Source: Nitrospirae bacterium GWF2_44_13
GTDB lineage: Bacteria > Nitrospirota > Thermodesulfovibrionia > Thermodesulfovibrionales > UBA1546
Reading direction: 5' to 3'
Assembly (NCBI GenBank): GCA_001805105.1
Contig: MHEE01000012.1
Coordinates: 171,127 to 235,126, forward strand
DNA: 64,000 nt
The translations under genes were made by a program, and so were the position numbers. The number at the start of each line of letters is the position of its first letter. Within the stretch, counting starts at the first letter, position 1. The notes under the pieces are model-generated. The model ran no database searches, was not told the origin of the DNA, and saw nothing but the letters and a program-made list of their open reading frames with translations. Shown here piece by piece: positions 49,169 through 63,195 of the stretch.

Positions 49169-49171
49169 TTT

Positions 49172-50200
49172 CTAATACCAGATAATATTCCCCTTTTTAT
49201 CTTTTACAGGCACCTTTCGCATTGAAACCTGCTTCTCCCACATTGCCTTGTTATTTTTATACCATTCTATCGTCCTCTTAAGCCCATCTTCAAAACCGAC
49301 ATTAGTCCTGAAACTCACAGTATTCGCTATTTTATCAGTGGACGATATGTGTTTTTCAACCTGCCCAAATCTTTCTTCCATGAACTCAAGTCGACTTTCG
49401 TCAAGCCCGAACACATCACATATCATTTCAGCAATCTTAAGGACACTTATGCTTTTACCGCTTCCTGCATTGAAAACCTCTCCCTTTACCTTATCAATCG
49501 GCGCATGAACAGCTTTATCCACAGCCTCGGCAGTATCATCAACAAAAACCCAGTCCCTTTCAGCAGTACCGTCGCCATGTATGGTCAAAGGCTCTCCAAG
49601 CAAAGCACTTGTTATAAACCTCGGGATTACCTTCTCAAGATGCTGCGAAGGGCCGTAATTATTGAACGGCCGTATAATGACACCCGGTATATCATAAGAG
49701 ACTACATAAGAATGGACAAGCCTGTCAGCTCCAGCCTTTGCGGCAGCATACGGCGTTGTAGGATTTAATGGGTGGTCTTCATCCATAGGCTCATAAAGAG
49801 CTGAGCCGTAAACCTCGGATGTTGAGATGTGGATAAATCTCTCTATTCTGTCAACATGCTTTAAAACAGCATTTGCTACAGATTGAGTTCCCAGAACATC
49901 GGTAACAAAAAAGACCCTGTTAAGATAGAGGGAGCGGGCAACATGTGTTTCTGCTGCAAAATGTACAACTACATCAGACCTGCCCACAAGGTCGCTTACA
50001 AGGTCAAGGTTGTTTACATCACCGTACCAGAATTCAAATCTCTCTGAATTCCTGCTCTCAAGAGGAATATTTTCTATATTCCCTGCATAAGTTAAGGCAT
50101 CAAGGACGATTATTTTATAGCCGCTATATTTTTTGAATATGTGCCTGACGAAATTACTTCCAATAACCCCCGCCCCGCCTGTAACAAGAATTGTTTTCAT
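49172..50200 (-). CDS. NDP-hexose 4,6-dehydratase (RfbB-like, second copy)
   Basis: MKTILVTGGAGVIGSNFVRHIFKKYSGYKIIVLDALTYAGNIENI, FAAETHVARS, ISTSEVYG, YAAAKAGADRL. Confidence 0.75.
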   Translation of the reverse strand: MKTILVTGGAGVIGSNFVRHIFKKYSGYKIIVLDALTYAGNIENIPLESRNSERFEFWYGDVNNLDLVSDLVGRSDVVVHFAAETHVARSLYLNRVFFVTDVLGTQSVANAVLKHVDRIERFIHISTSEVYGSALYEPMDEDHPLNPTTPYAAAKAGADRLVHSYVVSYDIPGVIIRPFNNYGPSQHLEKVIPRFITSALLGEPLTIHGDGTAERDWVFVDDTAEAVDKAVHAPIDKVKGEVFNAGSGKSISVLKIAEMICDVFGLDESRLEFMEERFGQVEKHISSTDKIANTVSFRTNVGFEDGLKRTIEWYKNNKAMWEKQVSMRKVPVKDKKGNIIWY

Positions 50201-50231
50201 AATAAAGCCTCCTTAACAGATAATTGCTGCT

Positions 50232-51809
50232 TTATAATGCATCAGATGAATCCATTGTTTTATACATTAAAGCAATAGGCTCATTCTGGAATGATATAAT
50301 ACTTTCTAATCTATAGCCCAAGCTTTTGGCATAATTGGAATCGTTAAGCATACGCATCCATATCATATCCTTATATGGGACATACATCTTTCCGGATAAT
50401 ATCACATATGAAGGCTTCAACGTTTGGCTTATTGTTTTAAGCGTATCAAGATCATACGGAAGCCATATAGCCTTTCTATCAGCATACCATGCCAGTTCCC
50501 ACGGCATATCTGTCAAGATAAGAGTATCTTTTTCCGTCAATTTCTCAACCTGTTTACCCATTGATATGAACGGATTTATCGGTTTGGGACTTTTCCAGTA
50601 CGGCATTGCAGTAAAAGCAAAGGCTATCAGCCCGAATGACAATACAATCGGGCTGTATTTTTTTAAAAGATCATCAACGTTAATCACGGAAACAATCATC
50701 ATTATTGGAAAAAAGAACATGTAATAATACGGCACAGGCCCCATCGGAAGGAGTAAAGCAGTCTGCACAATAATTCCCACGATAGTAATAATCCTCAACA
50801 TGCGCACCCGGGAATTTTTTAAAGGCATAAAAAATGTTACTCCTGTCAGCAATAAGACAACAGGGGTGTAAAAATCCACCGAGTTCTCTAAAAGCCTCCA
50901 AAACCACTGATAGCTCTTTGATATCATCTCCCCGGGATGGCTCATGACGAACATGATGGGGTTAATATCGCTTATTTGTGTCCATACTGAATAAGTCGGG
51001 AAGCTTTTTGTGAACAACAAAAAACTATAGCCATACAATGAAAAGAAAGGATTCCCAATGATACTGTAGTTTCTGACAAGATGCGGCGTGATTCCTATCA
51101 TGAAACCAATTGACAGTTTTCCTGCATCAAGAAATCTTTCTCTTAGATTTTGTTTTCCGTGAAAAATATACATCAGGAAAAAAGCGATAAAGACAAACTG
51201 GGTATTTGCCCTCACGAGTTGTAAGAGACCGAGCATAATTCCGTAAATCAGGGGTCTGCATGGATATTTGATATAGAAATAAAAAAAAGCGACATAAAGC
51301 GACGAATACATAATATTGGGCTCAGCCTGCAGGCTGTGGTCAAGAAAGCACTTCATGCACGAAACCAGCAATGCGGCTATTAGGCTTATAACCGTATTTT
51401 TGGAAAGCTCATATGCAAGGAAATAAACTAAAATAATCAGAGCAACAAAAAAAACACCATTTAAAAAAACAACAGTAAAGTCTGACTGACCAAATATTTT
51501 AAAGGATAATCCTAAGATGTAAGGGTAACCTATCATTCGGGTGATTTCAGGCTGAGGAAGGGTTTTAAAAAAACGGTATGCAAGGGGCCTCAATACAGAT
51601 GTGGAATAACCATTCCCTTCATTAACATTTTTTGCCAGTTGAGCATAATCATGGCTGTCATTTATGACAAAACCATTAAAATGCAAGGCATAGTTTGCAT
51701 ACCATATTGCAACAGCAATTAAAAAAACAAGGATTAAGCCTAATTTAAAGGATAATCTAATTGAATATTCTAAATTTTCTTTTTGAAGATTCTCTTGACT
51801 CTGTTCCAT
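50232..51809 (-). CDS. GT-C-type polytopic glycosyltransferase (ArnT/PMT_2-like)
   Basis: Start set to ATG 51809 (AAGGA upstream); the track start at 51899 would overlap the upstream gene by 130 nt. First periplasmic loop INDSHDYAQLAKNVNEGNGYSTSVLRPL is typical of ArnT/GT39-83-type enzymes. About 12 TM helices plus a C-terminal soluble domain. Confidence 0.55.
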   Translation of the reverse strand: MEQSQENLQKENLEYSIRLSFKLGLILVFLIAVAIWYANYALHFNGFVINDSHDYAQLAKNVNEGNGYSTSVLRPLAYRFFKTLPQPEITRMIGYPYILGLSFKIFGQSDFTVVFLNGVFFVALIILVYFLAYELSKNTVISLIAALLVSCMKCFLDHSLQAEPNIMYSSLYVAFFYFYIKYPCRPLIYGIMLGLLQLVRANTQFVFIAFFLMYIFHGKQNLRERFLDAGKLSIGFMIGITPHLVRNYSIIGNPFFSLYGYSFLLFTKSFPTYSVWTQISDINPIMFVMSHPGEMISKSYQWFWRLLENSVDFYTPVVLLLTGVTFFMPLKNSRVRMLRIITIVGIIVQTALLLPMGPVPYYYMFFFPIMMIVSVINVDDLLKKYSPIVLSFGLIAFAFTAMPYWKSPKPINPFISMGKQVEKLTEKDTLILTDMPWELAWYADRKAIWLPYDLDTLKTISQTLKPSYVILSGKMYVPYKDMIWMRMLNDSNYAKSLGYRLESIISFQNEPIALMYKTMDSSDAL

Positions 51810-53296
51810 AACATCCTTGCCGTAACATTTATAAATCGGAAAGCTAAATAGAAGAAAGCCCTGCCCATTTTTAAAATCTCGCCAATGGATAAATACCATT
51901 TGCTGGAAAGTTTTATAACATTGCCGCCTGCTACTGATTGTGTAAATAACAGCTTTAATCCACTGAAGCTTAGGTAATAGGATAAGTTAGCCCACATCGT
52001 ATCGAAAATGAGTTCAATCCTGTCGTTTCCCTCAGGAACGTAGGGAATATCGTCGCTTTCCCACATGTATTGAACTCCGAAGTTCTCCCAATTCCCTTTG
52101 ATAAGGATTTTACCTTCAGGCGCGAGCATATTATAGACAGGGGTTCCAGGATATGGAGCAAGGGTATTAAAACGGACTGATGACAATGGAAGAGATTTTA
52201 CTAATTTCATCGCACCCCATCGGTCTCTCCTTGTCTCTGTCGGCAGCCCGAAAATTATTGTAGTTCCGACAGCAATACCTTTTCCGGCTGCCCTTTCTAT
52301 CGCTTCAATAACTTCTCTGACCGTTTCTCCCTTATTAATAACTTTCATAAGTCTTTCGCTGCTTGTCTCGAGGCCATAATAAATAATCCTGAAGTTGGCT
52401 TCTGCAGCCTTATCAAGTATCTCGTCCGTGGCATTATCTCCGCGCATTGAACCATGAAAAAATGCCTTTTTATATAAACCTTCACTGATAATTGCGTCAC
52501 AAAGCTCTATGAAGTGTTTCTTGTTAACAGAAATATTATCGTCCATAAGAAAAACCGATTTCTGTCTATATTTATTAATTAAAGTGGAGCATTCAGAAAT
52601 TACTCTATCAACAGAATGAAAACGATATTTTCGTCCTGAAATGCTCCTCGCAGAACAGAATGTGCAGCCATAAGGGCATCCTCTTGAGCCGAACACCCCG
52701 GAAAAGTTTGGATATTTATCAAGATGCTTTTCAAATAAATGATACGGAAATGGAGGGATATCATCAAGATTCTCAATTAAAGGCCTGCTGGGGTTGTGAA
52801 CAGGGCTGCCATTATTATTGTAGGAGATTCCAAGTATATGCCTAAAGTCTTTTCCGTTAAGTATCAAAGCAATAAGTTCTTTTACAGTCTCTTCCCCTTC
52901 TCCTCTTACAACAACATCAACGCCTTTTCTGAACAGCACTTCTTCAGGAACGACTGTGGGATGTATCCCGCCAAAGACAATTTTTGATTTGGGGTCAAGC
53001 ATCTTAACCTTCTCTGCTAATTCATAAGCCCTGCCGCTGTTTAAGGTCAAAACACTCAGGCCGATAACCCGAGGTTTGCGTAGAGCATATATTGTTTCAA
53101 ATAATAGATTATCGTTAAGAGGGGTTACTTGTTCATCAATGATATTCACATGTTCAATACCTGATGCCATTAAATAGCCGGCAAGGACACCAATGCTTGT
53201 GGGGAACGAAATATTTATAAGGGCGTTAATCCTCTTGTTTTGAGAATAGTCGCTTATTTTAGGATTGATTAATAAGATATTTGTCTCCAATATCAC
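51770..53296 (-). CDS. B12-binding-domain radical SAM enzyme
   Basis: VFGGIHPT, VRGEGEETVKELI, VFGSRGCPYGCTFC. 4-nt overlap with the upstream GT2. Confidence 0.8.
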   Translation of the reverse strand: MILETNILLINPKISDYSQNKRINALINISFPTSIGVLAGYLMASGIEHVNIIDEQVTPLNDNLLFETIYALRKPRVIGLSVLTLNSGRAYELAEKVKMLDPKSKIVFGGIHPTVVPEEVLFRKGVDVVVRGEGEETVKELIALILNGKDFRHILGISYNNNGSPVHNPSRPLIENLDDIPPFPYHLFEKHLDKYPNFSGVFGSRGCPYGCTFCSARSISGRKYRFHSVDRVISECSTLINKYRQKSVFLMDDNISVNKKHFIELCDAIISEGLYKKAFFHGSMRGDNATDEILDKAAEANFRIIYYGLETSSERLMKVINKGETVREVIEAIERAAGKGIAVGTTIIFGLPTETRRDRWGAMKLVKSLPLSSVRFNTLAPYPGTPVYNMLAPEGKILIKGNWENFGVQYMWESDDIPYVPEGNDRIELIFDTMWANLSYYLSFSGLKLLFTQSVAGGNVIKLSSKWYLSIGEILKMGRAFFYLAFRFINVTARMLWNRVKRIFKKKI

Positions 53297-54228
53297 TTCT
53301 CCTTCTTTTCTTCCATGCCAATAAAATCTTTAACAATAAAAGGAGGCCTTCTCCTTGATTCATCAAAGTTGCGCCAGAGGTATTCTCCTAATACTCCAAG
53401 CAATATCATTTGGACTCCCGATACTAAAAGAAGAACAACCATAAGAGATGTCCAGCCCTCTATAGTTTTAGAATAAAACAGCCGCGCAGCAATGACAATT
53501 AATGCATATATAAAACCTGTAAAAGCTATTGTTATCCCCAAAAAGGACATAACTCTCAAGGGGTAATAAGAAAATGATACAAAGGTATCTATAAACAGTT
53601 TAATTTTCTTGCCTAATGTCCATTTTGAAGCTCCCTTGTACCTTGCCCCCTTTTTGTAATAAACTACCTTCTGACTGAATCCGCTCCATAGTATAAGACC
53701 GAATATAGATGTGTTTTTTTCTCCCATTGAGATAACAGCATTCACTACTTTCCTGTCAATGAGAAATACATCAGTTCCGCTTTCCGGCATATTCTTAAGC
53801 GCAAACTTTCTTACAAGTCTGTAATATAATCTTTGAAAAAATTGTCCCGAATCTTTCTTCCATTCTCTTACGCCGATCACAACCTCATATCCACTCCGCC
53901 ATTCGTTTATCAATCGGTGAATAAGTTCGGGAGGATCCTGAAGATCAGCGGAAATAAAAGTGCATACATCTCCATTTGAATACATAAGTCCGGCAAGGCA
54001 GGCTGAGTGACTGCCGAAATTTCTTGATAGACTCAAGGCCTTTATACGATTATCTTTTGTTGAGAGTTCTCTTATAATACGGAGAGAACCATCCGAAGAA
54101 CCGTCATCAATAAAAATAAATTCGAAATCATACTCAGCTTGAATTGCTATTTCATTCAATTTCTGATAAAGAACAGAAAGATTTTCCTCTTCATTATATA
54201 TCGGGATAATTACTGATATTAAAGCCAT
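53293..54228 (-). CDS. GT2 polyprenyl-phosphate glycosyltransferase, ArnC/GtrB-like with two C-terminal TM helices
   Basis: ISVIIPIYNEEENL, FIDDGSSDGS, ISADLQDPPELI, RNFGSHSA. C-terminal hydrophobic pair. Confidence 0.8.
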   Translation of the reverse strand: MALISVIIPIYNEEENLSVLYQKLNEIAIQAEYDFEFIFIDDGSSDGSLRIIRELSTKDNRIKALSLSRNFGSHSACLAGLMYSNGDVCTFISADLQDPPELIHRLINEWRSGYEVVIGVREWKKDSGQFFQRLYYRLVRKFALKNMPESGTDVFLIDRKVVNAVISMGEKNTSIFGLILWSGFSQKVVYYKKGARYKGASKWTLGKKIKLFIDTFVSFSYYPLRVMSFLGITIAFTGFIYALIVIAARLFYSKTIEGWTSLMVVLLLVSGVQMILLGVLGEYLWRNFDESRRRPPFIVKDFIGMEEKKEK

Positions 54229-54243
54229 AATAAAATTAATTTA

Positions 54244-54693
54244 TTATAAGTTTTGTTTTTCGTTTTTCCATTTTTCTATTTCACTTTCAATATTCCGTAC
54301 TATTCTGCCTGGGACGCCTGCTACAAGGGAATATGGCGGTATTACAGTTCCTTCCGTAATCACGGTCCCTGCCGCAATAATACTATGATGACCTATATGA
54401 ACACCTATTAGTATAGTTGAATGCTCTCCAATAAAAACATAGTCTTCTACGACAGTCTCAGATTTTTCAACTTCGTTGTATTCTCTTTCTGTCACGCAAC
54501 GCTTTACAGTTGAATGAGTGATTATATGGACGCCGCAGCTTATATTACAGCATCTACCAATTCTTAATCCTCCTATACCATCAATAACAGTAAAAGCCCC
54601 AATCCACGTTCCTTCCCCAATCTCAGGATTATTTATAATCCATGCATGGGGATTATATTTGTTAGGAGAAATTCCATGCTCATCAAATGTCAT
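54244..54693 (-). CDS. Left-handed beta-helix (hexapeptide) acyl/acetyltransferase
   Basis: Start set to ATG 54693 (ATGA overlap with the upstream stop). Hexapeptide repeats IGEGTWIGAFTVIDG..., IGEHSTILIGVHIGHHSIIAAGTVI. Confidence 0.7.
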   Translation of the reverse strand: MTFDEHGISPNKYNPHAWIINNPEIGEGTWIGAFTVIDGIGGLRIGRCCNISCGVHIITHSTVKRCVTEREYNEVEKSETVVEDYVFIGEHSTILIGVHIGHHSIIAAGTVITEGTVIPPYSLVAGVPGRIVRNIESEIEKWKNEKQNL

Positions 54694-55814
54694 TGCAATA
54701 CCTCTTTTATGCATTGTATAACATATGCCTGTTCCTCCACTGTCATTGTTGGATACAAAGGAAGCAGGATTGTATTTTTTGTAACGTGCTCAACTCCGGG
54801 CAAAGGAACATAGTATTTTTTATAGCACTCCTCCATATGAATCGCCATAATCCCTCTTCTTGTCGCTATGCCCTTTTTAAGTAGCCTCCGCATTAAATCA
54901 TCACGTGATACAGGCGAGGTGTCAAGCAATTCAACCCAGTATGATTGATAATTAGGGAAGGCGTAGTCAGGGATTTTAGGGACTTTTAGACATGGGATTT
55001 TTCTTAATTCCGTATTATAAAGATCTGATATCTGTCTTCTTCTTTTTATAATAAATAGCAGTCTTTTAAGCTGTTCTATGCCTATCGCAGCTTGAATATC
55101 GGTCATCCTATAGTTATATCCAATTTCTGGATACATTTCTATTATAACTTTGTCTGCCGTGTGCCTTTCAATATCGGATACTGACATGCCGTGATGACGG
55201 AACCTTCTTAATCTTTCTGCAATCACCTGATTGTCGGTTGTTATCATTCCACCTTCTCCAGTTGTTATAATCTTTCTCGGATGAAAGCTGAAACATGCAA
55301 TGTTGCCATGTCCTCCTATTTTCTTGCCCCTATATTCAGACCCGATAGCACATGCTGCATCTTCTATAAGCACAAGACCGCGCTTCTTACATAAATCCAT
55401 TATCTGGTTAAGGTCAACAGGAAGTCCCATCTGGTGGACAGGCATAACAGCCTTTGTCTTTTTGGTAATAATCTTCTCAATCGTCTCTACTGTAACATTA
55501 CAAGTATCAGGGTCAATATCCGCGAAAACAGGTATCGCACCTGCATGCACTACTGAGTTCGCGGTTGCTATAAAAGACAAGGAAGGCACAATAACCTCAT
55601 CTCCTGTGCTTATGCCTGATACCACAAGCGCAGCGTGAAGAGCCGTAGTGCATGACGTTGTTGCAACCGCATATTTCGCGCCAACATATAGGGCAAACAT
55701 CTCTTCGAATTCTTTAACCTTGGGCCCCTGTGAAACCCAGCCCGAACGGATAGCTTCAGCTGCTGCGGTTTCTTCTTCAATGCCTAAATAAGGCTTTGCA
55801 ATCGGTATATTCAT
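54690..55814 (-). CDS. DegT-family PLP sugar aminotransferase (ArnB-like position)
   Basis: FSFHPRKIITTGEGG, GDEVIVPSLSF, EDAACA. Confidence 0.85.
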   Translation of the reverse strand: MNIPIAKPYLGIEEETAAAEAIRSGWVSQGPKVKEFEEMFALYVGAKYAVATTSCTTALHAALVVSGISTGDEVIVPSLSFIATANSVVHAGAIPVFADIDPDTCNVTVETIEKIITKKTKAVMPVHQMGLPVDLNQIMDLCKKRGLVLIEDAACAIGSEYRGKKIGGHGNIACFSFHPRKIITTGEGGMITTDNQVIAERLRRFRHHGMSVSDIERHTADKVIIEMYPEIGYNYRMTDIQAAIGIEQLKRLLFIIKRRRQISDLYNTELRKIPCLKVPKIPDYAFPNYQSYWVELLDTSPVSRDDLMRRLLKKGIATRRGIMAIHMEECYKKYYVPLPGVEHVTKNTILLPLYPTMTVEEQAYVIQCIKEVLQ

Positions 55815-56818
55815 TTGGGAGTCTCCCAGTTAAAAACAATATCTTCTTTCATCAAATTTGCCGTATTATATCCCTGAGATATAAACCAGCTTATAAACAT
55901 ATCAAGCCCTTTATCAATCCCTATTTCTGCCCTGAATCCAAAAAGCCTTTCTGCCTTCTTAACTCCTGCAAAATGCCTCTTAACATCACCCGGTCTTTCT
56001 TTTTCAAAAACCTGTTTTATGTGAGGCTTGCCAAGCTTTTTGTAAATCTTTTCAGCAAGCTCTTTTATGCTGACCTCTTCGCCGCGAGCAATATTAACGG
56101 TCTGTCCAATCATCTCATCACATCCGGACGCCTTGATAATCCCTTTTACCGTATCAGCAACATAGGTAAAATCCCTTGTCTGCAACCCGTCCCCAAAAAT
56201 AACAGGGGGCTGATCATTAAGCGCCCTAAGGACAAATTTGGGAATCACCTCGCCGTATGCGCCTTCAAAGTGTTCCCTCGGCCCATAGGTATTGAATGGG
56301 ATGACAACCATTGATTGCATGCCGTATGTCCTGTGATACGCAAGTGCATATTTCTCGCCGGCGAGCTTGCTTGCCCCATATATAGTAGTGGGTTCACAAG
56401 GATGCGTCTCGTCCATGGGGACATTAACAGCCGTGCCGTATACCTCTGAAGACGATACATACACAAACCTTTTTACAGAATTCTTAAGCGCAGCCATGCA
56501 CAGATTCAAAGTTCCAGTAGCATTGACCTCATGGTTAATTTCGGGGTCGTTAATTGAAACCCTGAGGCATTGAACAGCAAGATGATAAATAACATCTACT
56601 CCTTTTGTAATGCTAAACAAAAGATTTTTATCTCTTACATCTCCTTCTATAATTTCAACGTTATCTTTTCCAGCATAATGAGCTACATTCTTCTTTTTAC
56701 CTGATGAAAAATTGTCAAGGATTACAATATGGTTGTCTATGACAAGCTCATCCACAAGATTGCTGCCGATGAAACCGGCCCCTCCTGTAACAAGTATTTT
56801 CATGCCCTTAATCTTCAT
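55811..56818 (-). CDS. Extended SDR nucleotide-sugar epimerase/dehydratase/decarboxylase
   Basis: MKILVTGGAGFIGSNLVDELV, SSSEVYG, YGASKLAGE. Confidence 0.75.
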   Translation of the reverse strand: MKIKGMKILVTGGAGFIGSNLVDELVIDNHIVILDNFSSGKKKNVAHYAGKDNVEIIEGDVRDKNLLFSITKGVDVIYHLAVQCLRVSINDPEINHEVNATGTLNLCMAALKNSVKRFVYVSSSEVYGTAVNVPMDETHPCEPTTIYGASKLAGEKYALAYHRTYGMQSMVVIPFNTYGPREHFEGAYGEVIPKFVLRALNDQPPVIFGDGLQTRDFTYVADTVKGIIKASGCDEMIGQTVNIARGEEVSIKELAEKIYKKLGKPHIKQVFEKERPGDVKRHFAGVKKAERLFGFRAEIGIDKGLDMFISWFISQGYNTANLMKEDIVFNWETPK

Positions 56819-56821
56819 ATT

Positions 56822-57928
56822 CTAACTTCTGAAAAATTCCTTAATCTTTTCTGAGATATATACCTGATATTCCTCTTTAAGTTCAGGATACATAGGCAAT
56901 GACAATATCTCGCTGCAAGCCTTTTCTGTTTCCGGAAAATCACCTTTTCTATATCCAAAAACAGCAACTGCTTCCTGAAGATGAGCAGGATTTTTATAAT
57001 GAATGCCCGTTCCTATGCCATTTTTTGAAAGATATTTCTGCAGTTCATCTCTTCTTTGACTTCGGACTACATATAAATGATAAACATGCATCCGGCCTTT
57101 TGCCTCAACAGGAAGCTCAAGAGGGGTATCTTTCAAAAATGAATTATATATCTCTGCCCTTTCTCTTCTTTTACTGTTGTATTCATTGAGATATTTCAGC
57201 CTTATTCTCAAAATTGCAGCCTGTATCTCATCGAGCCTGCCGTTATAACCTATAACAGCATGTTCGTATTTTGATTTATGTCCGTGATTCCTGTATAAAC
57301 GTATGAACTCTGCTGTTTTTTCATTATTAGTTATGACAATGCCGCCTTCGCCGTATGTCCCAAGATTTTTTGTAAAATAAAAACTGAAACAGCCGGCGTC
57401 TCCCAGTGCCCCTGCTTTAATGCCTTTATAAAGCGCGCCATGAGCCTGACATGCGTCTTCTATTACAGAAATCCCGTATTGTTTTGAGATTTCTAATATT
57501 GGGTCTATTCCCGCTGTCTGCCCGTACATATGGACAGGGATTATTGCCTTTGTCTTTTTTGTTATCTTTTTTTCTATGTCTGCGGGGTTAATGTTATAAG
57601 TCAGCGGATCAATATCAACAAAGACCGGCCTTGCCCCTATACATGAAATCGCCTCTACTGTTGCAAAAAAGGTATGCGGCGTTGTTATGACCTCATCTCC
57701 TTCTTTTATTCCGCAGGCCAAAAGGGCAAATTGAATAGCTTCAGTCCCTGAGCCTACGCCTATTGCATATCTTGCGCCGCAAAAGGAAGCAAATTCCTTT
57801 TCGAATGCCTGACAATTCGGCCCTATATTCAGATTCATTCCATCTAAAACATCGCCGATTGCTTTCATCACTTCATCTTTTATAGGTTCAAACCCAGCTT
57901 TAAGGTCAACAAAAGGGATTTCTTTCAT
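56822..57928 (-). CDS. DegT-family PLP sugar aminotransferase (WbpE/WlbC-like position)
   Basis: Start at ATG 57928 (ATGA overlap). FSFYFTKNLGTYGEGG, GDEVITTPHTF, EDACQA. Confidence 0.8.
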   Translation of the reverse strand: MKEIPFVDLKAGFEPIKDEVMKAIGDVLDGMNLNIGPNCQAFEKEFASFCGARYAIGVGSGTEAIQFALLACGIKEGDEVITTPHTFFATVEAISCIGARPVFVDIDPLTYNINPADIEKKITKKTKAIIPVHMYGQTAGIDPILEISKQYGISVIEDACQAHGALYKGIKAGALGDAGCFSFYFTKNLGTYGEGGIVITNNEKTAEFIRLYRNHGHKSKYEHAVIGYNGRLDEIQAAILRIRLKYLNEYNSKRRERAEIYNSFLKDTPLELPVEAKGRMHVYHLYVVRSQRRDELQKYLSKNGIGTGIHYKNPAHLQEAVAVFGYRKGDFPETEKACSEILSLPMYPELKEEYQVYISEKIKEFFRS

Positions 57929-58584
57929 TTGCTTTCCTTTTCCTGATATGGCGGCCACATATATGGCTTCTCATAAAAACCTTTGGGACATGTCAACTGG
58001 TCGATTTTTTTAATAACTTTTGCAGGGTTTCCTGCAACAACACTGTCAGGGGGGACATCCTTTGTTACAACAGAACCGGCGCCTATAAGACTGTTCTTGC
58101 CGATTTTGATACCCGGGAGTATTGTGGAATTAGCTCCGATCCTGACATAGTCTTCAACTACAGCGCCACCCTTACATTCTTTGTAATGCGGACACCCCAT
58201 GGGATGAGGATCATCCGTAAAAACAACATTCGGGCCGACAAAGACATATTTGCCGATTGTTACCATCTCCAGAAAACAACTACTGTGAATCCTGCTGTAA
58301 TCGCCTATTCTGTTTCCAAATTCAAGGACAGAATTTGTTCCGATGCTTACATTATTGCCGATGAGATTATCTTCCCTGATGGATACTCCCTGACCTGTCT
58401 GAAAATAATCTCCGATTTCGCTGCCTGCGTAAACAGTGGTGAACGGCCTTATCTGCCCGTTACTGCCGATTTTTAATTCTAAATCTCCGTGCTTCGCTCC
58501 GCGGGGAGGCTTGCCGATAATGGACGGCGGCTCTATCAATGTCCCTTCACCGACAATAACGTTTGGATAGATGACATTATTCAT
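57925..58584 (-). CDS. Hexapeptide-repeat N-acetyltransferase (WbpD/WlbB-like)
   Basis: Left-handed beta-helix repeats throughout (VGEGTLIEPPSIIG..., IGANSTILPGIKIGKNSLIGAGSVV). Confidence 0.7.
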   Translation of the reverse strand: MNNVIYPNVIVGEGTLIEPPSIIGKPPRGAKHGDLELKIGSNGQIRPFTTVYAGSEIGDYFQTGQGVSIREDNLIGNNVSIGTNSVLEFGNRIGDYSRIHSSCFLEMVTIGKYVFVGPNVVFTDDPHPMGCPHYKECKGGAVVEDYVRIGANSTILPGIKIGKNSLIGAGSVVTKDVPPDSVVAGNPAKVIKKIDQLTCPKGFYEKPYMWPPYQEKESK

Positions 58585-59597
58585 ATGTTTACTTTAACGC
58601 CGCCTTTTTTCAGTGACTTACTTGCAGCTTCAAGAATTCTAACTACTCTTAGCCCTGACTCTCCGTCAGTTATAGGTTTTTTCTTGTTTTTTATGCAGTC
58701 GGCAAAATGTTCGATTTCCACTTTTAATGCCTCTATGTTTGTAATTGCAGGCGCATACATATCTCCTATCCTGTATTGCACCATGCTCTGATAAACGGAT
58801 TTCTCGTTAGCCTTTGAAAGCGTAATACCCTTATCATAAATCTTTATCTTTTCGGCCGGGTCAAGATCATCAAATACAACCATCTTCTTGCTTCCGCCGA
58901 TTATGACCTTTCGTATCTTAACAGGCGACATCCAGTTAACGTGAAAGTGGGCTATTATATTATCTCTGAATTTGACCGTAACATATGCGACATCTTCCAG
59001 CCCCCTCGGTGTATGGCTTGCACCAGTTGCAACAACGCTCACGGGTTTTTCTTCAATAATGAAATCCATAATCGAAAGGTCATGAGGGGCAAGGTCCCAG
59101 ATTACATTTACATCATGCTGAAAGAGTCCCAGATTAACCCTGACAGAATCAAAATAATACACATCTCCAAGTTCACCTGCTGATATGAAGTCCTTAATCC
59201 TCCTTATAGAGCCTGTATATATGAATGTATGGTCAACAAGAAGGGTTAAACCTTTTTTATATGCAAGATTAACAAGAGTTTCCGCCTCCCTGGCAGTTGA
59301 AGTAAAGGGCTTTTCAACAAGCACGTGCTTGCCTGACTCAAGGGCTTCTTTCACAAGTTTATAATGCGTAAAAACCGGTGTGGCCACTGCTACTGCATGA
59401 ATATCTTTATCCTTCAATAAACTCTTATAATCAGTTGTTACATTAATGGACGGATGCCTTAGTTTAATGCGTTCAAGCTTGTCGCGGCTTAAGTCGCAGG
59501 CAAATTTTATATCAGTGTTGTAATTGTCGCTGAAATTTCTGATGAGATTTGGCCCCCAGTAGCCGCAGCCTATAACGCCTACCTTTATATCCTTCAT
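58581..59597 (-). CDS. Gfo/Idh/MocA-family NAD(P) oxidoreductase (WlbA-like sugar 3-dehydrogenase position)
   Basis: MKDIKVGVIGCGYWGPNLIRNF, VLVEKPF. Confidence 0.7.
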   Translation of the reverse strand: MKDIKVGVIGCGYWGPNLIRNFSDNYNTDIKFACDLSRDKLERIKLRHPSINVTTDYKSLLKDKDIHAVAVATPVFTHYKLVKEALESGKHVLVEKPFTSTAREAETLVNLAYKKGLTLLVDHTFIYTGSIRRIKDFISAGELGDVYYFDSVRVNLGLFQHDVNVIWDLAPHDLSIMDFIIEEKPVSVVATGASHTPRGLEDVAYVTVKFRDNIIAHFHVNWMSPVKIRKVIIGGSKKMVVFDDLDPAEKIKIYDKGITLSKANEKSVYQSMVQYRIGDMYAPAITNIEALKVEIEHFADCIKNKKKPITDGESGLRVVRILEAASKSLKKGGVKVNI

Positions 59598-60322
59598 GCC
59601 TTTTTCTTTAGCTCCATGCTCAAAATCAAACCCATTGTCATATCTATATATTTTACCTCAAAGCCGAGCTTCTTATAGAAGTTCATTGCTATGCTATTAT
59701 TAGCCTGTGTTCTGACTGTGGCCGTATTCACCCCATTTTCTTTAAACCATTTTAAAGCCCTGTGCATAAGACTGGTTCCTATCCCTTTGCCCTGTGACTT
59801 GGGAATTACACCGATATGAGGTATGTCCCCTCTATTTTTAGACAGTCTTTTGCAGGTGATAAAACCGCTCTTTTCGGCAACAAATACCTTAATCGTTTTA
59901 TCTTCCACAGAATTTTCAACCCAAGCCTGATAGACCTTGTCAGCTTCTTTTTTTGTAAAAAAGGGGTCATTATAAAAACGGCTGTCTTTGAACAGTCCCC
60001 TTACGGTTGTTTTGAGCATTGGGCTATCTTTGCCTGTTGCCTCCCTTATATTAGAATTTGAGATTTGAGATTTAAGATTTGAAATATTTTTGATAATCTT
60101 TTTTTCCCATACAATACCAATATCAGTCAAATAAAATCCGTGTTTTTCGAGAAGCTGGATTTCTGCTATCTTATCCAAAATTAATCTGCATGAGAGATAT
60201 TCGTATCCTTTGTTATGCGCCTGATGAATCAGATTTTTGAGTTTCTTTCCCTGCGGGACTTTTGTTAATCTTCCGATTTTCCTGCTAAAAAATTCTGAAT
60301 CCCACTCAACTTTCTCAATCAA
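59594..60322 (-). CDS. GNAT N-acetyltransferase, WecD (TDP-fucosamine acetyltransferase)-like
   Basis: N-terminal VEWDSEFFSRKIGRL (WecD-type opening). C-terminal GNAT core HIGVIPKSQGKGIGTSLMHRAL. Confidence 0.6.
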   Translation of the reverse strand: MIEKVEWDSEFFSRKIGRLTKVPQGKKLKNLIHQAHNKGYEYLSCRLILDKIAEIQLLEKHGFYLTDIGIVWEKKIIKNISNLKSQISNSNIREATGKDSPMLKTTVRGLFKDSRFYNDPFFTKKEADKVYQAWVENSVEDKTIKVFVAEKSGFITCKRLSKNRGDIPHIGVIPKSQGKGIGTSLMHRALKWFKENGVNTATVRTQANNSIAMNFYKKLGFEVKYIDMTMGLILSMELKKKA

Positions 60323-61244
60323 GAATATGCTCCTTAATAATATAGATAGGCCTTGCCTGAACCTCCTGATATACCCTGCCGATATATTCCCCTATAATGC
60401 CGAGCATTAAAAGTTGTATTCCGCCGACGAATAGGACTGCTACAATTATTGAGGCATAGCCAAGCACAGGTATCCCGAGGAATAACTTTTTGTAGATAAA
60501 ATACAAACTATAAAACAATCCGATACCTGAACTCAGCAAGCCGATGTAAGTTGCAAGCCTGAGCGGAAAGGTCGAAAATGACGTAATGGCATTAAATGCA
60601 AGTCTGAAGAGCTTGATGACATTGTATTTGCTTTTCCCGCGCTCGCGCGGTGCGTGCTCAACTTCCTGCATGGCAGTTTTAAATCCGGTCCATGCTATCA
60701 TGCCGTGAATAAACCTTGACCGCTCTCTCATGCTGTTAAGGGCGTCAAGTATCTTCCTGTCGAATATCCTCAAAAGCGTCTGGTTTCTCGGAATGTTTAT
60801 TCCGGAAAAGCTGTTGATAAACCACCAGAATACAAAAGAAGCAAATCGCTTTAATATTGAATCCTTTTTTTCTTTTCTTATCCCGTAGACAAGCTCATAA
60901 CCTTCATTGAATTTTTTGAGAAGCTTCGGAATTTCCTCTGGCGGATCCTGCAAGTCTCCGTCCATCAATATAATTGCCTTACCTTGTGCATGATCCATGC
61001 CTGCTGTGATTGCTATATGATGTCCGAAGTTTCTTGAGAAGCTGAGTCCTTTTACTCTCGAATCCTTTTCATGCAAATCCTTTATAATCTGCCAGCTTTT
61101 ATCTGAGCTTCCGTCATCAACAAAAATAATTTCATAGGTTCCAAGCCTCTCCATAACCGTCCCCAAACGTCTGTGAAGTTCACTGACATTCTCTTCTTCA
61201 TTGTAAACCGGTATAATTATGGAAAATTCAATCATATCCTTCAC
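60315..61244 (-). CDS. GT2 polyprenyl-phosphate glycosyltransferase, ArnC/GtrB-like with two C-terminal TM helices (paralogue of 53293..54228)
   Basis: FSIIIPVYNEEENV, FVDDGSSDKS, LMDGDLQDPPEEI, RNFGHHIA. Confidence 0.8.
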   Translation of the reverse strand: MKDMIEFSIIIPVYNEEENVSELHRRLGTVMERLGTYEIIFVDDGSSDKSWQIIKDLHEKDSRVKGLSFSRNFGHHIAITAGMDHAQGKAIILMDGDLQDPPEEIPKLLKKFNEGYELVYGIRKEKKDSILKRFASFVFWWFINSFSGINIPRNQTLLRIFDRKILDALNSMRERSRFIHGMIAWTGFKTAMQEVEHAPRERGKSKYNVIKLFRLAFNAITSFSTFPLRLATYIGLLSSGIGLFYSLYFIYKKLFLGIPVLGYASIIVAVLFVGGIQLLMLGIIGEYIGRVYQEVQARPIYIIKEHILD

Positions 61245-61294: not shown

Positions 61295-63150
61295 CTACTT
61301 TTTAATACTTTCAATCTCACCCTCTATTTTTGCTATCATCTCCTTTACATCTAAGTCTTTAGGGTGTCTTTTCAGCGCATACTTATAAGCAGTAAGTGCA
61401 TCTCTTAGCTTCCCCATCTCATAAAAGGTCTTGCCTAAAGTTATAAGATATTTTGGATTGCTTTTATATATAGTAGCCTTATATGAGGCAACAAACACAA
61501 TTACATCGTAAACATAGTCTTTAGAAAGCCTGTATTTTGCTATAATCTCATGATTTTGGGGAATGTCCCTTATAAATATAATGGCAACATGGTCGCCATA
61601 TATGGGAACCCAGTTTTCATTGTCAGCGAGTTTTAAAAGGAGCCTCGGAACCGTTCCATAGACATCCAGAATGTCAAACAGTATAAAATTGATATTATAG
61701 TGATCTAACAATCTTTTCCAGAGAGGAGTTTTTCCCTCGGGAAGTTCTTTATTAACAATCGTCTCTACGGCATTCATCATCCATAAATGTTCTGCCTGAG
61801 TAGTTGCACTAAGCCATCTAGTATCAATAAATGTTCTTTTCCATGGATAAAGTCTCCATGTAATATAGCCGCCGTAACCAGCTTCATTGAGCATATTGCC
61901 CTGTAATCTATTTTTTTCTATGAAATCAACTGCACTTACTGGAGTAGTATGCCACCGCGCTATATCCAGTTTTAATTCTCTGGTCTTATAAATACTGGCA
62001 AAGAAAATTACAGACGACAACAACGCCACAATTGCAAAAGCATACTCCATCCTGTTCCTGAGATTATTAGACAATCTATCGAACAGATCCCGGGATAATA
62101 TATCCGTCTCTTTCCCGATAATCATTGCTGCAATCAATATGTAATAAATAACAAATCTGCCTGCTGTTGCAGCCATAACGCAGAAACCTACCAGAAGCGC
62201 TACATGTGTTAAATCCAGCTTTTTATTCCTTAAAATTAAGATGAATAAAAAAATGAAGGTCATTGCAGCATAGCCGTATGGAAACGGAGAAACCCTGCTT
62301 ATATAAGCAGAAATGGGTGAGTGATATTCCTGAATGCCCGATGTAAGGATACTATACTTAGGTGAAAAGGCAACAGAAAAAGCCTCCCATCCCGTAGGGT
62401 TTATGCAGGAAGCCAAGAAGGCTAATGACAAAGCAATATAAAAAACGATTATTTCTCGTTTATTATATGTTGCCTTTTTTAATCCAATCTTAATGCCTTC
62501 ACATAACATATAAACCAGAATGATAAAATTACCGATGATAAACCCGCCGTGAAGGTTAGACCATAGGAGCATTACGGGAAAAAGAAAAAATAAAACTGCC
62601 CAGCTTTTTTCTTTTTGGACTGCAACTCTATCCTTAAATTCTTCAAGGATAATAAATATTAAGGGGGTAAAGAGTATTGTGAACAAAACAGGACGCTCAC
62701 CCACAGCACTTGTTATTTGAAAATATACAAGAAAGATAAGGACAAATGAAACATAGAAATTTACATTCCATTTTTTAAGTCTCCAGAGGACTAACAATAT
62801 AGTCATCAATAAAATTGATGATCTGAGGATTATTATTCCTTTCGGGCCTGTGCTTTCAAAGACCAGATAAAATATAATTTGAGCAAGCCAATATTGCTTC
62901 AGTAAAAAATTTTCCCTCTCTGGTAGAAGGCTCTCATTCTCTTTTAGGTTTAAGGTATAGGAAAACGGATCTTTATCAGGGAGCTTGCCTGTTTCTACGA
63001 TATATCTGCCTGTCGCTATGTGCCACCAGAAATCGGAATCAAAAAGATTACAAGCTAAAAAAACATAATAAAAACTACCAAGAATGATAATAAAGGCTAA
63101 AACAGATAGGGTTTTTAGATTTTTTTTTTATAAAATTCAATTATTGTCAT
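61295..63150 (-). CDS. Polytopic membrane protein with C-terminal TPR (GT-C-like); reading frame broken at an A10 tract 7 codons after the ATG
   Basis: The track ORF (61295..62809, TTG start) is N-terminally incomplete. The same frame stays open to 63127 and encodes KKNLKTLSVLAFIIILGSFYYVFLACNLFDSDFWWHIATGRYIVETGKLPDKDPFSYT... with no ATG/GTG/TTG. The only upstream ATG (63150) reads ATG ACA ATA ATT GAA TTT TAT A10 TC TAA and is in the other frame; A11 or A8 would fuse them. C-terminus: LGKTFYEMGKLRDALTAYKYALKRHP (TPR). Confidence 0.6.
63120..63129 (-). repeat. A10 (plus-strand T10) homopolymer at the frame break of the membrane/TPR gene
   Basis: Plus strand 63120-63129 = TTTTTTTTTT, flanked by A at 63119 and A at 63130. 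Confidence 0.95.
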
Positions 63151-63158
63151 AAATAGTT

Positions 63159-63195
63159 AGCTATCAGGTCCGGAAGGTTCCCGGCCCTGATAGCT
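63159..63195 (-). terminator. Strong stem-loop directly after the pilin stop (terminator/attenuator-like)
   Basis: AGCTATCAGG (63159-68) pairs perfectly with CCTGATAGCT (63186-95). Inner CCGG/CCGG (63170-73 / 63181-84), 7-nt loop. In the RNA sense it is followed by AACUAUUUAUG; the hairpin ends 8 nt before ATG 63150. Confidence 0.5.

What the first reader, a model, noticed from the sequence alone, without database searches (positions are those of the whole stretch)
63120..63150. A10 tract separates the start codon from the body of the pilin-adjacent membrane/TPR (GT-C-like) gene
The long reading frame is open from 63127 down to 61295. Its first 106 codons (a KK-anchored TM helix, then DSDFWWHIATGRYIVETGKLPDKDPFSYT) look like a genuine conserved N-terminus but contain no ATG, GTG or TTG. 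The only upstream start is ATG 63150, which reads M T I I E F Y then A10 and hits TAA two codons later. With 11 (or 8) A's it would read straight into the long frame (MTIIEFYKKKNLKTLSVLAF...). This is the configuration of a homopolymer ON/OFF switch by slipped-strand mispairing, or of expression that depends on transcriptional slippage, which is known for runs of 9 or more A/T. The gene also has no SD and sits 8 nt after a strong hairpin, consistent with tightly limited or stochastic expression of a pilin-modifying enzyme. A homopolymer sequencing error is the trivial alternative.
Basis: seen in the sequence. Interest (0 to 1): 0.65.

Follow-up and report, generated by a model that had tools for sequence, protein, structure and literature searches.

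The report
Fixed A-run frameshift in glycosyltransferase gene
A membrane sugar-transferase gene next to the pilus-subunit gene of a groundwater Nitrospirota bacterium is genuinely out of frame by one A at a run of ten A's just after its start codon. The same defect occurs in four related lineages whose genes are otherwise perfectly conserved, so the enzyme is probably made only when the polymerase or ribosome slips on the run.

Summary
On the minus strand, ATG 63150 reads MTIIEFYKKKI* through an A10 run (63120-63129). The 610-codon frame behind it has no ATG, GTG or TTG for 106 codons. One extra A, or a -1 ribosomal shift, gives a 618-aa protein.

Homologues (~605-620 aa) cover 97-99% of that protein. 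The "missing" N-terminus holds TM1 and the invariant DxDFWWH loop of a GT-C glycosyltransferase. This was shown with an AlphaFold model (pLDDT 88.6) whose best fold matches are STT3, PglB, DPY19, AftA and ArnT.

It is not an assembly error. Ten other assemblies of the same population all have A10, and no in-frame allele appears in any collection searched.

The defect recurs in four more lineages (A9), each one A short. Frameshifts occur in 5 of 7 lineages with runs of 9 or more A's and in 0 of 27 with shorter runs. The frameshifted genes stay intact, keep 93/93-94 conserved residues and evolve at dN/dS about 0.2.

Best reading (0.45): a stable out-of-frame gene expressed at low level by transcriptional slippage (+1 A) or an unstimulated -1 ribosomal slip.

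Rivals: DNA-level phase variation (0.25), young pseudogenes (0.13) and a systematic sequencing artefact (0.04).

It is a new member of a known kind. Interest is moderate.

The parts
63120..63129 (-). A10 run (T10 on the + strand). This is the slippery site where the start-codon frame and the body frame are one nucleotide apart.
   Evidence: The run is identical in 10 further assemblies of the same population.
63115..63150 (-). Start codon ATG (63150-63148) and the 11-codon zero-frame reading MTIIEFYKKKI, ending at TAA 63117-63115.
61295..63127 (-). Body frame of the GT-C/TPR glycosyltransferase: 610 codons plus the stop, with no canonical start codon before TTG 62809. Public annotation calls only the last 500-503 aa.
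   Evidence: P0001 and P0121.
63020..63040 (-). The DSDFWWH motif, with the invariant D38-x-D40-FWWH, in the first periplasmic loop right after TM1. It lies upstream of the annotated start.
   Evidence: invariant columns. (helix 3-33, then a loop). (GT-C fold matches).
63138..63140 (-). TTG in the third frame. It would be in frame with the body if the run were A9.
   Evidence: Read from the sequence and recorded in note 3. No expression evidence.
63160..63194 (-). Strong hairpin (10+6 bp) between the pilin stop and the glycosyltransferase ATG. The position is conserved as structure, not as sequence, in relatives, and many relatives have a T-rich tail there.
   Evidence: fold, z = -3.4. (31 of 36 distinct loci have a hairpin of -12 kcal/mol or stronger; 13 have a T-rich tail). 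The simple terminator scan does not call it in the window.
63212..63745 (-). Type IV pilin gene with a strong Shine-Dalgarno sequence, directly upstream.
60315..61244 (-). GT2 polyprenyl-phosphate sugar synthase (ArnC/PgfS-like). It probably makes the lipid-linked donor for the GT-C enzyme.
   Evidence: PgfS 3e-80, ArnC-type 4e-70, both below the equivalog cut-offs.
56822..60322 (-). Sugar-nucleotide tailoring genes: a WecD-like GNAT, a Gfo/Idh/MocA oxidoreductase, a hexapeptide acyltransferase and a DegT aminotransferase.
   Evidence: The same gene order is found in relatives.

Best explanation
The gene is truly out of frame in the genome, one A short of the in-frame length, at an A10 run seven codons after its ATG. 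It remains a functional gene.

Full-length enzyme (618 aa, with TM1 and the catalytic DxD loop) is made only from a minority of expression events. In those events either RNA polymerase adds one untemplated A while copying the run (transcriptional slippage), or the ribosome slips -1 on A AAA AAA.

Three features together keep a catalytic pilin-modifying glycosyltransferase at a low, roughly constitutive level next to a very highly expressed pilin gene. These are the terminator-like hairpin after the pilin gene, the missing Shine-Dalgarno sequence, and the frameshift.

Shown: the frameshift is real and fixed, it recurs in relatives, and the gene is under purifying selection.

Inferred: the slippage itself, which of the two levels it acts at, and the pilin as the acceptor.
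For: 1. The frameshift is real and fixed. Ten other assemblies of this population (99.7-100% identical), from JGI, MGnify, the original scaffolds and Logan, and from at least five distinct runs or samples, all have A10. The collection holds 21 contigs with the same truncated product. The next-best full-length hit is only 71% identical, so no in-frame allele is on record.

2. It recurs in the same direction. L001 has A9. L002 has A9. L163, L164 and L165 have A9 in three separate runs. L183 has A9. Every one needs +1 A or a -1 shift. Frameshifts occur in 5 of 7 lineages with runs of 9 or more, against 0 of 27 with shorter runs (Fisher p = 7.5e-5).

3. There is no decay. All five genes keep about 607-616 open codons. 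Four of the five were tested for conserved residues and deviate at 0, 1, 0 and 0 of 93-94 highly conserved positions, against a median of 2 in 104 in-frame homologues.

4. Selection is purifying: dN/dS is 0.19-0.24 within the clade. L002 and L163 share the identical ATGTT-A9 state at dS 0.38. WIN, L002 and L163 form one clade with a single in-frame member, P0002, whose frame is restored by a G.

5. The N-terminus cannot be dispensed with. The invariant DxDFWWH motif sits right after TM1 in a GT-C fold.

6. No other long homopolymer in 1.06 Mb of these assemblies breaks a frame, and three other A/T9 runs lie in frame.

7. There is precedent. A+1 slippage restores the frame at A11 in C. rodentium tssM1 (PMC4256274), at a U run in Shigella mxiE, at A9 in Thermus dnaX and at A8 in human apoB (PMC1088944).
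Against: - There is no RNA or protein evidence, and slippage rates of Nitrospirota RNA polymerase and ribosomes are unknown.
- No hairpin lies downstream and no SD-like stimulator lies upstream of the run in any frameshifted locus, so a classical stimulated -1 frameshift is unsupported.
- All five cases being one A short also fits a plain contraction bias of replication slippage.
- The shared state of L002 and L163 can be explained by two independent A10-to-A9 contractions plus an A-to-G change in P0002.
- Two relatives with A9 (L003, L013) are in frame, so the out-of-frame arrangement is not a universal feature of the family.
Confidence: 0.45

Rival explanations
1. Phase variation. The A-run changes length by slipped-strand mispairing during replication, switching the glycosyltransferase heritably ON (A11 or A8) and OFF (A10). 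All sampled populations happen to be OFF.
For: The run sits in the 5' coding region of a gene that modifies a surface structure, which is the classical contingency-locus layout. Frameshifts are confined to runs of 9 or more A's. Close relatives L163 (out of frame) and L003 (in frame) differ in frame at dS 0.036. Purifying selection with intact ORFs fits reversible switching as well as it fits recoding.
Against: No ON allele was seen in 11 assemblies of the window's species, 3 of the L163 lineage, or the other three frameshifted lineages. No in-frame A10 or A11 run was seen anywhere. No pure tract-length polymorphism was seen between near-identical sequences, including a strain that differs at 9 other positions. 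The L163/L003 difference is a G at the edge of the run, not a change in run length.
Confidence: 0.25
2. Recently inactivated pseudogenes. The long A-run is a mutational hot spot, and the gene has been knocked out independently and recently in several lineages where it is dispensable.
For: A10 and A11 runs contract easily. All five cases are contractions by one. L001 and L183 are each nested among in-frame relatives. The strains of the window's species differ by at most 0.3%, so the lesion could be young.
Against: Five of five frameshifted genes have no second lesion in about 610 codons, and the four tested show no excess change at conserved residues. Three of the four lineages in one clade share the state across dS 0.4-1.0 with dN/dS about 0.2. 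The dedicated downstream donor-synthesis genes are intact.
Confidence: 0.13
3. Systematic sequencing or assembly artefact. The true run is one A longer everywhere, and short-read data under-call A10 and A11 runs.
For: In-frame A10 or A11 runs are never observed, only runs one A short of them. All the data appear to be short-read metagenomes.
Against: Ten assemblies made with different assemblers and from different samples agree on A10, and three runs agree on A9 for L163-165. Other A/T9 runs and a C9 run inside genes are read in frame. From general knowledge, Illumina chemistry does not compress homopolymers, and a consensus error would need more than half the reads to be wrong.
Confidence: 0.04
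4. Non-canonical initiation or re-initiation. Ribosomes that finish the 11-codon upstream reading, or that start independently, begin in the body frame at a non-standard codon such as ATT (I21).
For: A gammaproteobacterial branch of the family seems to use a conserved SD-plus-ATT start, so unusual starts occur in this family. In L002 and L163 an ATT lies in the body frame six codons before the run.
Against: In the window the body frame is closed by TAA immediately before the run. The first ATT would delete the lysine anchor and half of TM1. No SD precedes it.
Confidence: 0.05

Closest known systems
Citrobacter rodentium tssM1 and Yersinia pseudotuberculosis tssM (transcriptional frameshifting at poly-A; PMC4256274)
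   Same: A cellular, non-mobile gene is interrupted at a run of A's (A11 there, A10 or A9 here). No ribosomal frameshift stimulators are nearby. The frame is restored by untemplated extra A's in the mRNA. The arrangement is conserved in a second genus.
   Different: There the run lies deep inside the gene and both the short and the long product are functional. Here it is at codons 8-11, so the zero-frame product is an 11-residue peptide and only the shifted product can function. Slippage is demonstrated there and only inferred here.
Shigella flexneri mxiE and Thermus thermophilus dnaX (programmed transcriptional slippage; summarised in PMC1088944)
   Same: Runs of 9 A/U. In mxiE, insertion of one nucleotide is needed to fuse two frames into the longer, active protein.
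   Different: A different protein class and position. mxiE slippage serves regulation of a transcription activator. Here the presumed role is to throttle the amount of enzyme.
E. coli dnaX and IS-element -1 ribosomal frameshifting on A AAA AAG or A AAA AAA
   Same: The heptamer A AAA AAA is in the correct phase in all five frameshifted loci, and a -1 shift gives exactly the homologous protein.
   Different: Those sites have an upstream SD-like element and a downstream hairpin. None is present here.
Phase-variable pilin and protein glycosylation genes of Neisseria (pgl genes with homopolymer or repeat tracts; from general knowledge) and Campylobacter
   Same: A simple repeat lies near the 5' end of a gene that decorates a surface filament.
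   Different: Those tracts differ in length between isolates and within cultures. Here no length variation was found in any comparison. The host is an uncultured groundwater Nitrospirota bacterium, not a host-adapted pathogen.
Pseudomonas aeruginosa TfpW (bioRxiv 10.1101/2020.04.19.049825)
   Same: A GT-C enzyme of about 620-650 aa with about 11 TM helices, an acidic motif in periplasmic loop 1 and a C-terminal periplasmic TPR domain. It is encoded immediately downstream of the major pilin gene and clustered with donor-sugar synthesis genes.
   Different: Sequence homology to TfpW was not tested. The donor here is probably an acetamido- or amino-deoxyhexose on polyprenyl phosphate, not D-arabinofuranose. 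TfpW is not frameshifted.
Buchnera and Blochmannia genes rescued by polymerase infidelity at poly(A) tracts (Tamas et al. 2008, from memory)
   Same: Frameshifts inside A10 or longer runs are tolerated because slippage restores a fraction of in-frame mRNA, and the genes stay under selection.
   Different: Those are genome-wide consequences of AT-rich, degenerating endosymbiont genomes. Here it is a single site, the longest run in 64 kb, in a free-living organism.

Membership tests
GT-C fold glycosyltransferases (lipid-phosphate-sugar dependent) | Multi-span membrane core with the GT-C fold | tested here: met
   AlphaFold model pLDDT 88.6, pTM 0.87. Foldseek top hits are STT3, PglB, DPY19, AftA, ALG12 and ArnT, with E from 3e-7 to 1e-3 and probability 1.00.
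GT-C fold glycosyltransferases (lipid-phosphate-sugar dependent) | Conserved acidic motif in the first extracytoplasmic loop after TM1 | tested here: met
   D38 and D40 (DxDFWWH) are invariant in 34 sequences. They lie directly after helix 3-33.
GT-C fold glycosyltransferases (lipid-phosphate-sugar dependent) | Match to a curated sequence family (Pfam or NCBIfam) | tested here: not met
   Only weak TPR hits were found. No PMT_2, ArnT or STT3 model matches. The family is unannotated in these libraries.
TfpW-like pilin glycosyltransferases | Gene immediately downstream of the major pilin gene, with a C-terminal periplasmic TPR domain | tested here: met
   A pilin gene lies on the same strand directly upstream in 33 loci. 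TPR is at residues 566-602 and forms the helical C-terminus in the model.
TfpW-like pilin glycosyltransferases | Sequence homology to P. aeruginosa TfpW, and pilin as the acceptor | not tested
The acceptor cannot be determined from sequence.
Programmed transcriptional slippage sites | Uninterrupted run of about 9 or more A or T in the sense strand at the frame junction | tested here: met
   A10 in the window, and A9 in L001, L002, L163-165 and L183.
Programmed transcriptional slippage sites | Out-of-frame arrangement conserved among orthologues that remain under purifying selection | tested here: inconclusive
   There are five lineages, three of them in one clade, with dN/dS about 0.2 and no decay. 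Independent recurrent contractions cannot be excluded, and most family members are in frame.
Programmed transcriptional slippage sites | Heterogeneous run length in mRNA but not in DNA | not testable with these tools
   This needs RNA and DNA reads.
Programmed -1 ribosomal frameshift sites | X XXY YYZ heptamer in the zero-frame phase | tested here: met
   A AAA AAA is in phase in all five loci.
Programmed -1 ribosomal frameshift sites | Stimulatory downstream structure or upstream SD-like element | tested here: not met
   The 55 nt downstream fold at 0 to -4.3 kcal/mol, within the range of shuffles. No GGAGG-like element lies upstream.
Phase-variable contingency loci (slipped-strand mispairing) | Simple repeat in the 5' coding region or promoter of a surface-related gene | tested here: met
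Phase-variable contingency loci (slipped-strand mispairing) | Repeat-length polymorphism between closely related genomes or within a population, giving ON and OFF alleles | tested here: not met
   11 of 11 assemblies of the window's species have A10, and 3 of 3 of L163-165 have A9. No ON allele is in the databases. Consensus assemblies cannot show minority alleles, so this test is weak.

The most novel reading that the evidence does not exclude
This would be an evolutionarily maintained recoding site in a cellular enzyme gene. A pilin-linked GT-C glycosyltransferase of Thermodesulfovibrionia-type Nitrospirota would be kept permanently one nucleotide out of frame at an A9-A10 run within its first 3-11 codons, with at least three independent origins. 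Obligatory polymerase or ribosome slippage would then act as a built-in attenuator, setting the enzyme:pilin ratio. That makes it a start-proximal 'slippage throttle' rather than a switch or a two-product device.
Probability: 0.35. Interest if true: 0.65.

Novelty: new member of a known kind. Interest (0 to 1): 0.5.

Why it matters
Few chromosomal, non-mobile bacterial genes are known to depend on slippage at a homopolymer; examples are dnaX, mxiE, tssM and copA. If this case is confirmed, it would add one in an uncultured environmental phylum. It would sit at an unusual position, directly after the start codon, where the only outcome is dosage control.

It also has a practical side. Public annotation calls a 500-503-aa product that lacks TM1 and the catalytic loop, so the enzyme is mis-annotated in at least five lineages.

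Finally, it defines a large unannotated GT-C/TPR family, invisible to Pfam and NCBIfam, that is tightly linked to type IV pilin genes in Nitrospirota. That points to widespread pilin glycosylation through polyprenyl-phosphate sugars outside the Proteobacteria.

Tried and rejected
- **Assembly error.** Rejected after fetching 10 more assemblies of the same population, all with A10.
- **Short N-termini in other homologues.** P0009, P0067, P0076, P0082 and P0093 (582-590 aa) looked like further frameshifts, but their DNA shows in-frame ATG starts that the gene callers missed. P0124 (489 aa) is cut by a contig end.
- **Look-up of P0001's own contigs.** Nothing was on record. The 503-aa cluster mate P0121 worked instead.
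- **Stimulated -1 frameshifting.** No downstream structure was found.
- **Avoidance of AAA-AAA-AAA for KKK in the window's genes.** There were too few KKK tripeptides (7) to say anything.
- **Sequence search of solved structures.** Only the TPR part matched, so fold search was needed.
- **The hairpin as a slippage stimulator (as in IS630-type sites).** Rejected because it ends about 30 nt before the run, which is too far.
- **A weak promoter-like match overlapping the ATG (63167-63140).** It is within chance expectation.
- **Homology to TfpW.** This could not be tested because no TfpW sequence was available.
Full report
**1. The observation.**
On the minus strand the sequence reads ATG(63150) ACA ATA ATT GAA TTT TAT, then ten A's (63129-63120), then TC TAA. 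The start-codon frame therefore gives MTIIEFYKKKI and stops.

The frame shifted by -1 is open from 63127 to the stop at 61295-61297. It has no ATG, GTG or TTG until TTG 62809. Inserting one A gives a 618-aa protein.

A10 is the longest homopolymer in the window. Only one other A/T run reaches 9.

A 35-nt hairpin (63194-63160) ends 9 nt before the ATG, and there is no Shine-Dalgarno sequence.

One detail was missed. TTG 63140-63138 opens the third frame, which would join the body frame at A9. A10 is thus the only length class without any start codon.

**2. What the gene is.**
The window comes from Nitrospirae bacterium GWF2_44_13. Public annotation calls only a 500- or 503-aa product (P0001, P0121).

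Homologues in Nitrospirota metagenomes are 605-620 aa long and cover 97-99% of the repaired protein. In a 34-sequence alignment, D38, D40, F41, W42, W43 and H44 are invariant, and all lie upstream of the annotated start.

An AlphaFold model built on that alignment is confident (pLDDT 88.6, pTM 0.87). It shows helix 3-33 (TM1), a loop carrying the DxD motif, about ten further membrane helices, a mixed alpha/beta periplasmic domain and a C-terminal TPR.

Foldseek against the PDB returns only GT-C enzymes at the top: yeast and human STT3, PglB, DPY19, AftA, ALG12 and ArnT. Pfam, NCBIfam and PDB sequence profiles see nothing but the TPR.

The next gene is an ArnC/PgfS-like polyprenyl-phosphate GT2. 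It is followed by a WecD-like GNAT, a Gfo/Idh/MocA oxidoreductase, a hexapeptide acyltransferase and a DegT aminotransferase.

A type IV pilin gene lies directly upstream on the same strand in 33 related loci. A strong hairpin sits in the spacer in 31 of 36 distinct loci, and 13 of these have a T-rich tail.

This architecture matches P. aeruginosa TfpW, a GT-C with C-terminal TPR encoded right after pilA (bioRxiv 10.1101/2020.04.19.049825). Homology to TfpW and the acceptor were not tested.

The inference is a periplasmic-face enzyme that transfers an amino- or acetamido-sugar from polyprenyl phosphate, most probably to the pilin. The truncated annotated product would lack TM1 and the catalytic loop and cannot be the active enzyme.

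**3. Is the frameshift real?**
The 503-aa product is carried by 21 contigs. Ten were fetched, from JGI, MGnify re-assemblies, the original Rifle scaffolds and Logan unitig assemblies, representing at least five distinct runs or samples.

All ten are 99.7-100% identical to the window over 3.4-3.9 kb, and all have exactly A10. This includes one strain with nine other differences.

A further fragment, P0122, also starts at the internal Met.

The other long homopolymers in the window, T9 at 12551-12559 and C9 at 9265-9273, lie in frame inside long ORFs. In 1.06 Mb of fetched loci plus the window there are only 20 A/T runs of 9 or more. Eight of them are this site, three others lie inside ORFs and are in frame, and none marks another frame junction.

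A one-off assembly error is excluded, and a systematic short-read artefact is very unlikely.

**4. The same thing in relatives.**
The gene starts of 36 distinct pilin-linked relatives were read. Most begin ATG-x(1-4)-K/R-rich-TM1, 29-31 codons before the DxD motif.

| Run length after the start | Loci | Frame |
|---|---|---|
| A10 | window | out |
| A9 | L001 (GCA_016208965.1) | out |
| A9 | L002 | out |
| A9 | L163 = L164 = L165 (three runs, two projects) | out |
| A9 | L183 | out |
| A9 | L003, L013 | in |
| A8 | L085, L086, L092 | in |
| A7 | L083 | in |
| 6 or fewer | the rest | in |

Frameshifts therefore occur in 5 of 7 lineages with runs of 9 or more and in 0 of 27 with shorter runs (Fisher p = 7.5e-5).

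Every frameshifted locus is one A short. Adding one A, or a -1 shift on A AAA AAA, gives an N-terminus that aligns with the in-frame homologues:
- MKIKKK-TNIFIVLAF in L001.
- MLKKK-LLITLSF in L002 and L163.
- MKIKFKKK-TNVLIALSF in L183.

No in-frame A10 or A11 run was seen anywhere.

Several other apparently short homologues turned out to be start-codon miscalls or contig ends.

**5. Are these dead genes?**
All five frameshifted genes keep 607-616 open codons after the run.

In a leave-one-out test on four of them (the window, L001, L002 and L163), they deviate at 0, 1, 0 and 0 of 93-94 columns that are at least 95% conserved. The median is 2 (range 0-7) in 104 in-frame homologues.

Pairwise dN/dS is 0.07-0.24. 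L002 and L163 share the identical ATGTT-A9 configuration at dS 0.38 with dN/dS 0.24. L003, whose protein is P0002, is in frame through a G (ATGTTG-A9) and lies at dS 0.036 from L163.

A neighbour-joining tree puts the window, L002, L163 and P0002 in one clade, with three of four members out of frame. L001 and L183 are separate, each nested among in-frame relatives. That implies at least three independent origins.

The most parsimonious history of the first clade is an out-of-frame ancestor with one repair. The alternative, three independent contractions plus a substitution, is also plausible at such a hot spot.

Either way, decaying pseudogenes are a poor description.

**6. Mechanism.**
Three facts must be explained together:
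- The out-of-frame state is fixed within populations.
- It recurs, always in the direction that +1 A in RNA or a -1 ribosomal shift would correct.
- The genes are under purifying selection.

Transcriptional slippage at runs of 9 or more A's needs no further signal. It is documented for A9 (Thermus dnaX), a U run (mxiE, where insertion is needed for the long product), A8 (apoB, about 10% rescue) and A11 (C. rodentium tssM1, with transcripts of 10-15 A's) (PMC1088944, PMC4256274).

A -1 ribosomal slip on A AAA AAA would give the same protein. However, no downstream structure or upstream SD-like element is present in any of the frameshifted loci, so only unstimulated slippage is possible.

In the window, A9 transcripts could also be productive through the TTG start.

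I therefore favour a stable frameshift read through by slippage (0.45), with RNA polymerase more likely than the ribosome. The result is a low, roughly constant amount of enzyme.

This fits the rest of the gene's set-up. It follows a terminator-like hairpin after a strongly expressed pilin gene and lacks an SD. A gammaproteobacterial branch of the family appears to use an SD-plus-ATT start. Weak initiation seems to be a theme of the family.

**7. Rivals.**
- DNA-level phase variation (0.25) remains possible, because consensus assemblies hide minority alleles and an A10 run must be mutable. Against it, there is no ON allele and no length polymorphism in any comparison.
- Young pseudogenes (0.13) fit the contraction bias but not the clean sequences and the shared state in one clade.
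- A systematic sequencing artefact (0.04) and non-canonical initiation (0.05) are unlikely.

None of these can be settled without reads, RNA or protein.

**8. Novelty and score.**
Both leading explanations belong to known kinds: programmed or tolerated slippage at poly(A), and homopolymer phase variation of glycosylation genes. This is a new member, not a new category.

Several things lift it above routine:
- The demonstrated fixation across many assemblies.
- The recurrence in five lineages with selection intact.
- The unusual start-proximal position.
- The host phylum.
- The definition of an unannotated pilin-linked GT-C family that public annotation truncates.

Interest is 0.5.

Noticed in passing
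window 63160-63194 (-), and the equivalent spacers in L001-L015, L032, L083-L098 and L163-L183: The pilin stop and the GT-C start are separated by a strong hairpin in 31 of 36 distinct loci (mostly -20 to -33 kcal/mol). The sequences are quite different, and 13 have a T-rich tail. The structure is conserved, not the sequence. It is probably the pilin terminator or attenuator, so the GT-C gene would be transcribed by read-through.
   Followed up: partly
L046 about 2930-2950, L056 about 2890-2910, L060 about 2935-2950, L100 about 1605-1625: Gammaproteobacterial members of the same GT-C family have GGAG, a 7-8 nt spacer, then ATT, followed by a conserved I-[ST]-x-Q. L056 has no canonical start in the open frame. 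This suggests a conserved ATT start codon in that clade.
   Followed up: partly
window 63138-63140 (-): A TTG in the third frame would be in frame with the body if the run were A9. Transcripts with one A fewer as well as one A more could therefore yield full-length protein. This holds for the window's lineage only.
   Followed up: partly
window 48041-58584 (-): The same minus-strand cluster continues with a second GT2 (53293-54228), a second GT-C of PMT_2/ArnT type (50232-51899), a B12-binding radical SAM enzyme (51770-53296), three DegT aminotransferases, two 4,6-dehydratase/epimerases and hexapeptide acyltransferases. This looks like a second lipid-linked amino-sugar transfer module.
   Followed up: partly
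P0009 (L166), P0067 (L167-L170), P0093 (L171), P0003 (L163-L165): Public gene calls for this family often start too late, at MRLFDSDFWWH, MDLWDYDFWWH or MLLSCNLF. They drop TM1 even where an in-frame ATG exists upstream.
   Followed up: yes
L003 248-255, L163 about 1369-1376, L183 759-766, L085; window 63054-63060 (T7): A second homopolymer (T7-T8, coding for the F-F-Y stretch of TM1) lies about 40 nt downstream of the A-run in many loci. It is always in frame.
   Followed up: no
P0007 and P0039/L001, loop after about residue 165: Two relatives carry a low-complexity insertion rich in Pro, Gly and Lys (NNPPSPPFSKGGKGG...) in a loop. Other family members lack it.
   Followed up: no
window 63140-63167 (-): A weak sigma-70-like match (CTGATA-16-AATAAT, 9 of 12) overlaps the hairpin's 3' arm and the ATG. 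Six such matches occur in the region against 3.9 expected by chance, so it is probably noise.
   Followed up: no
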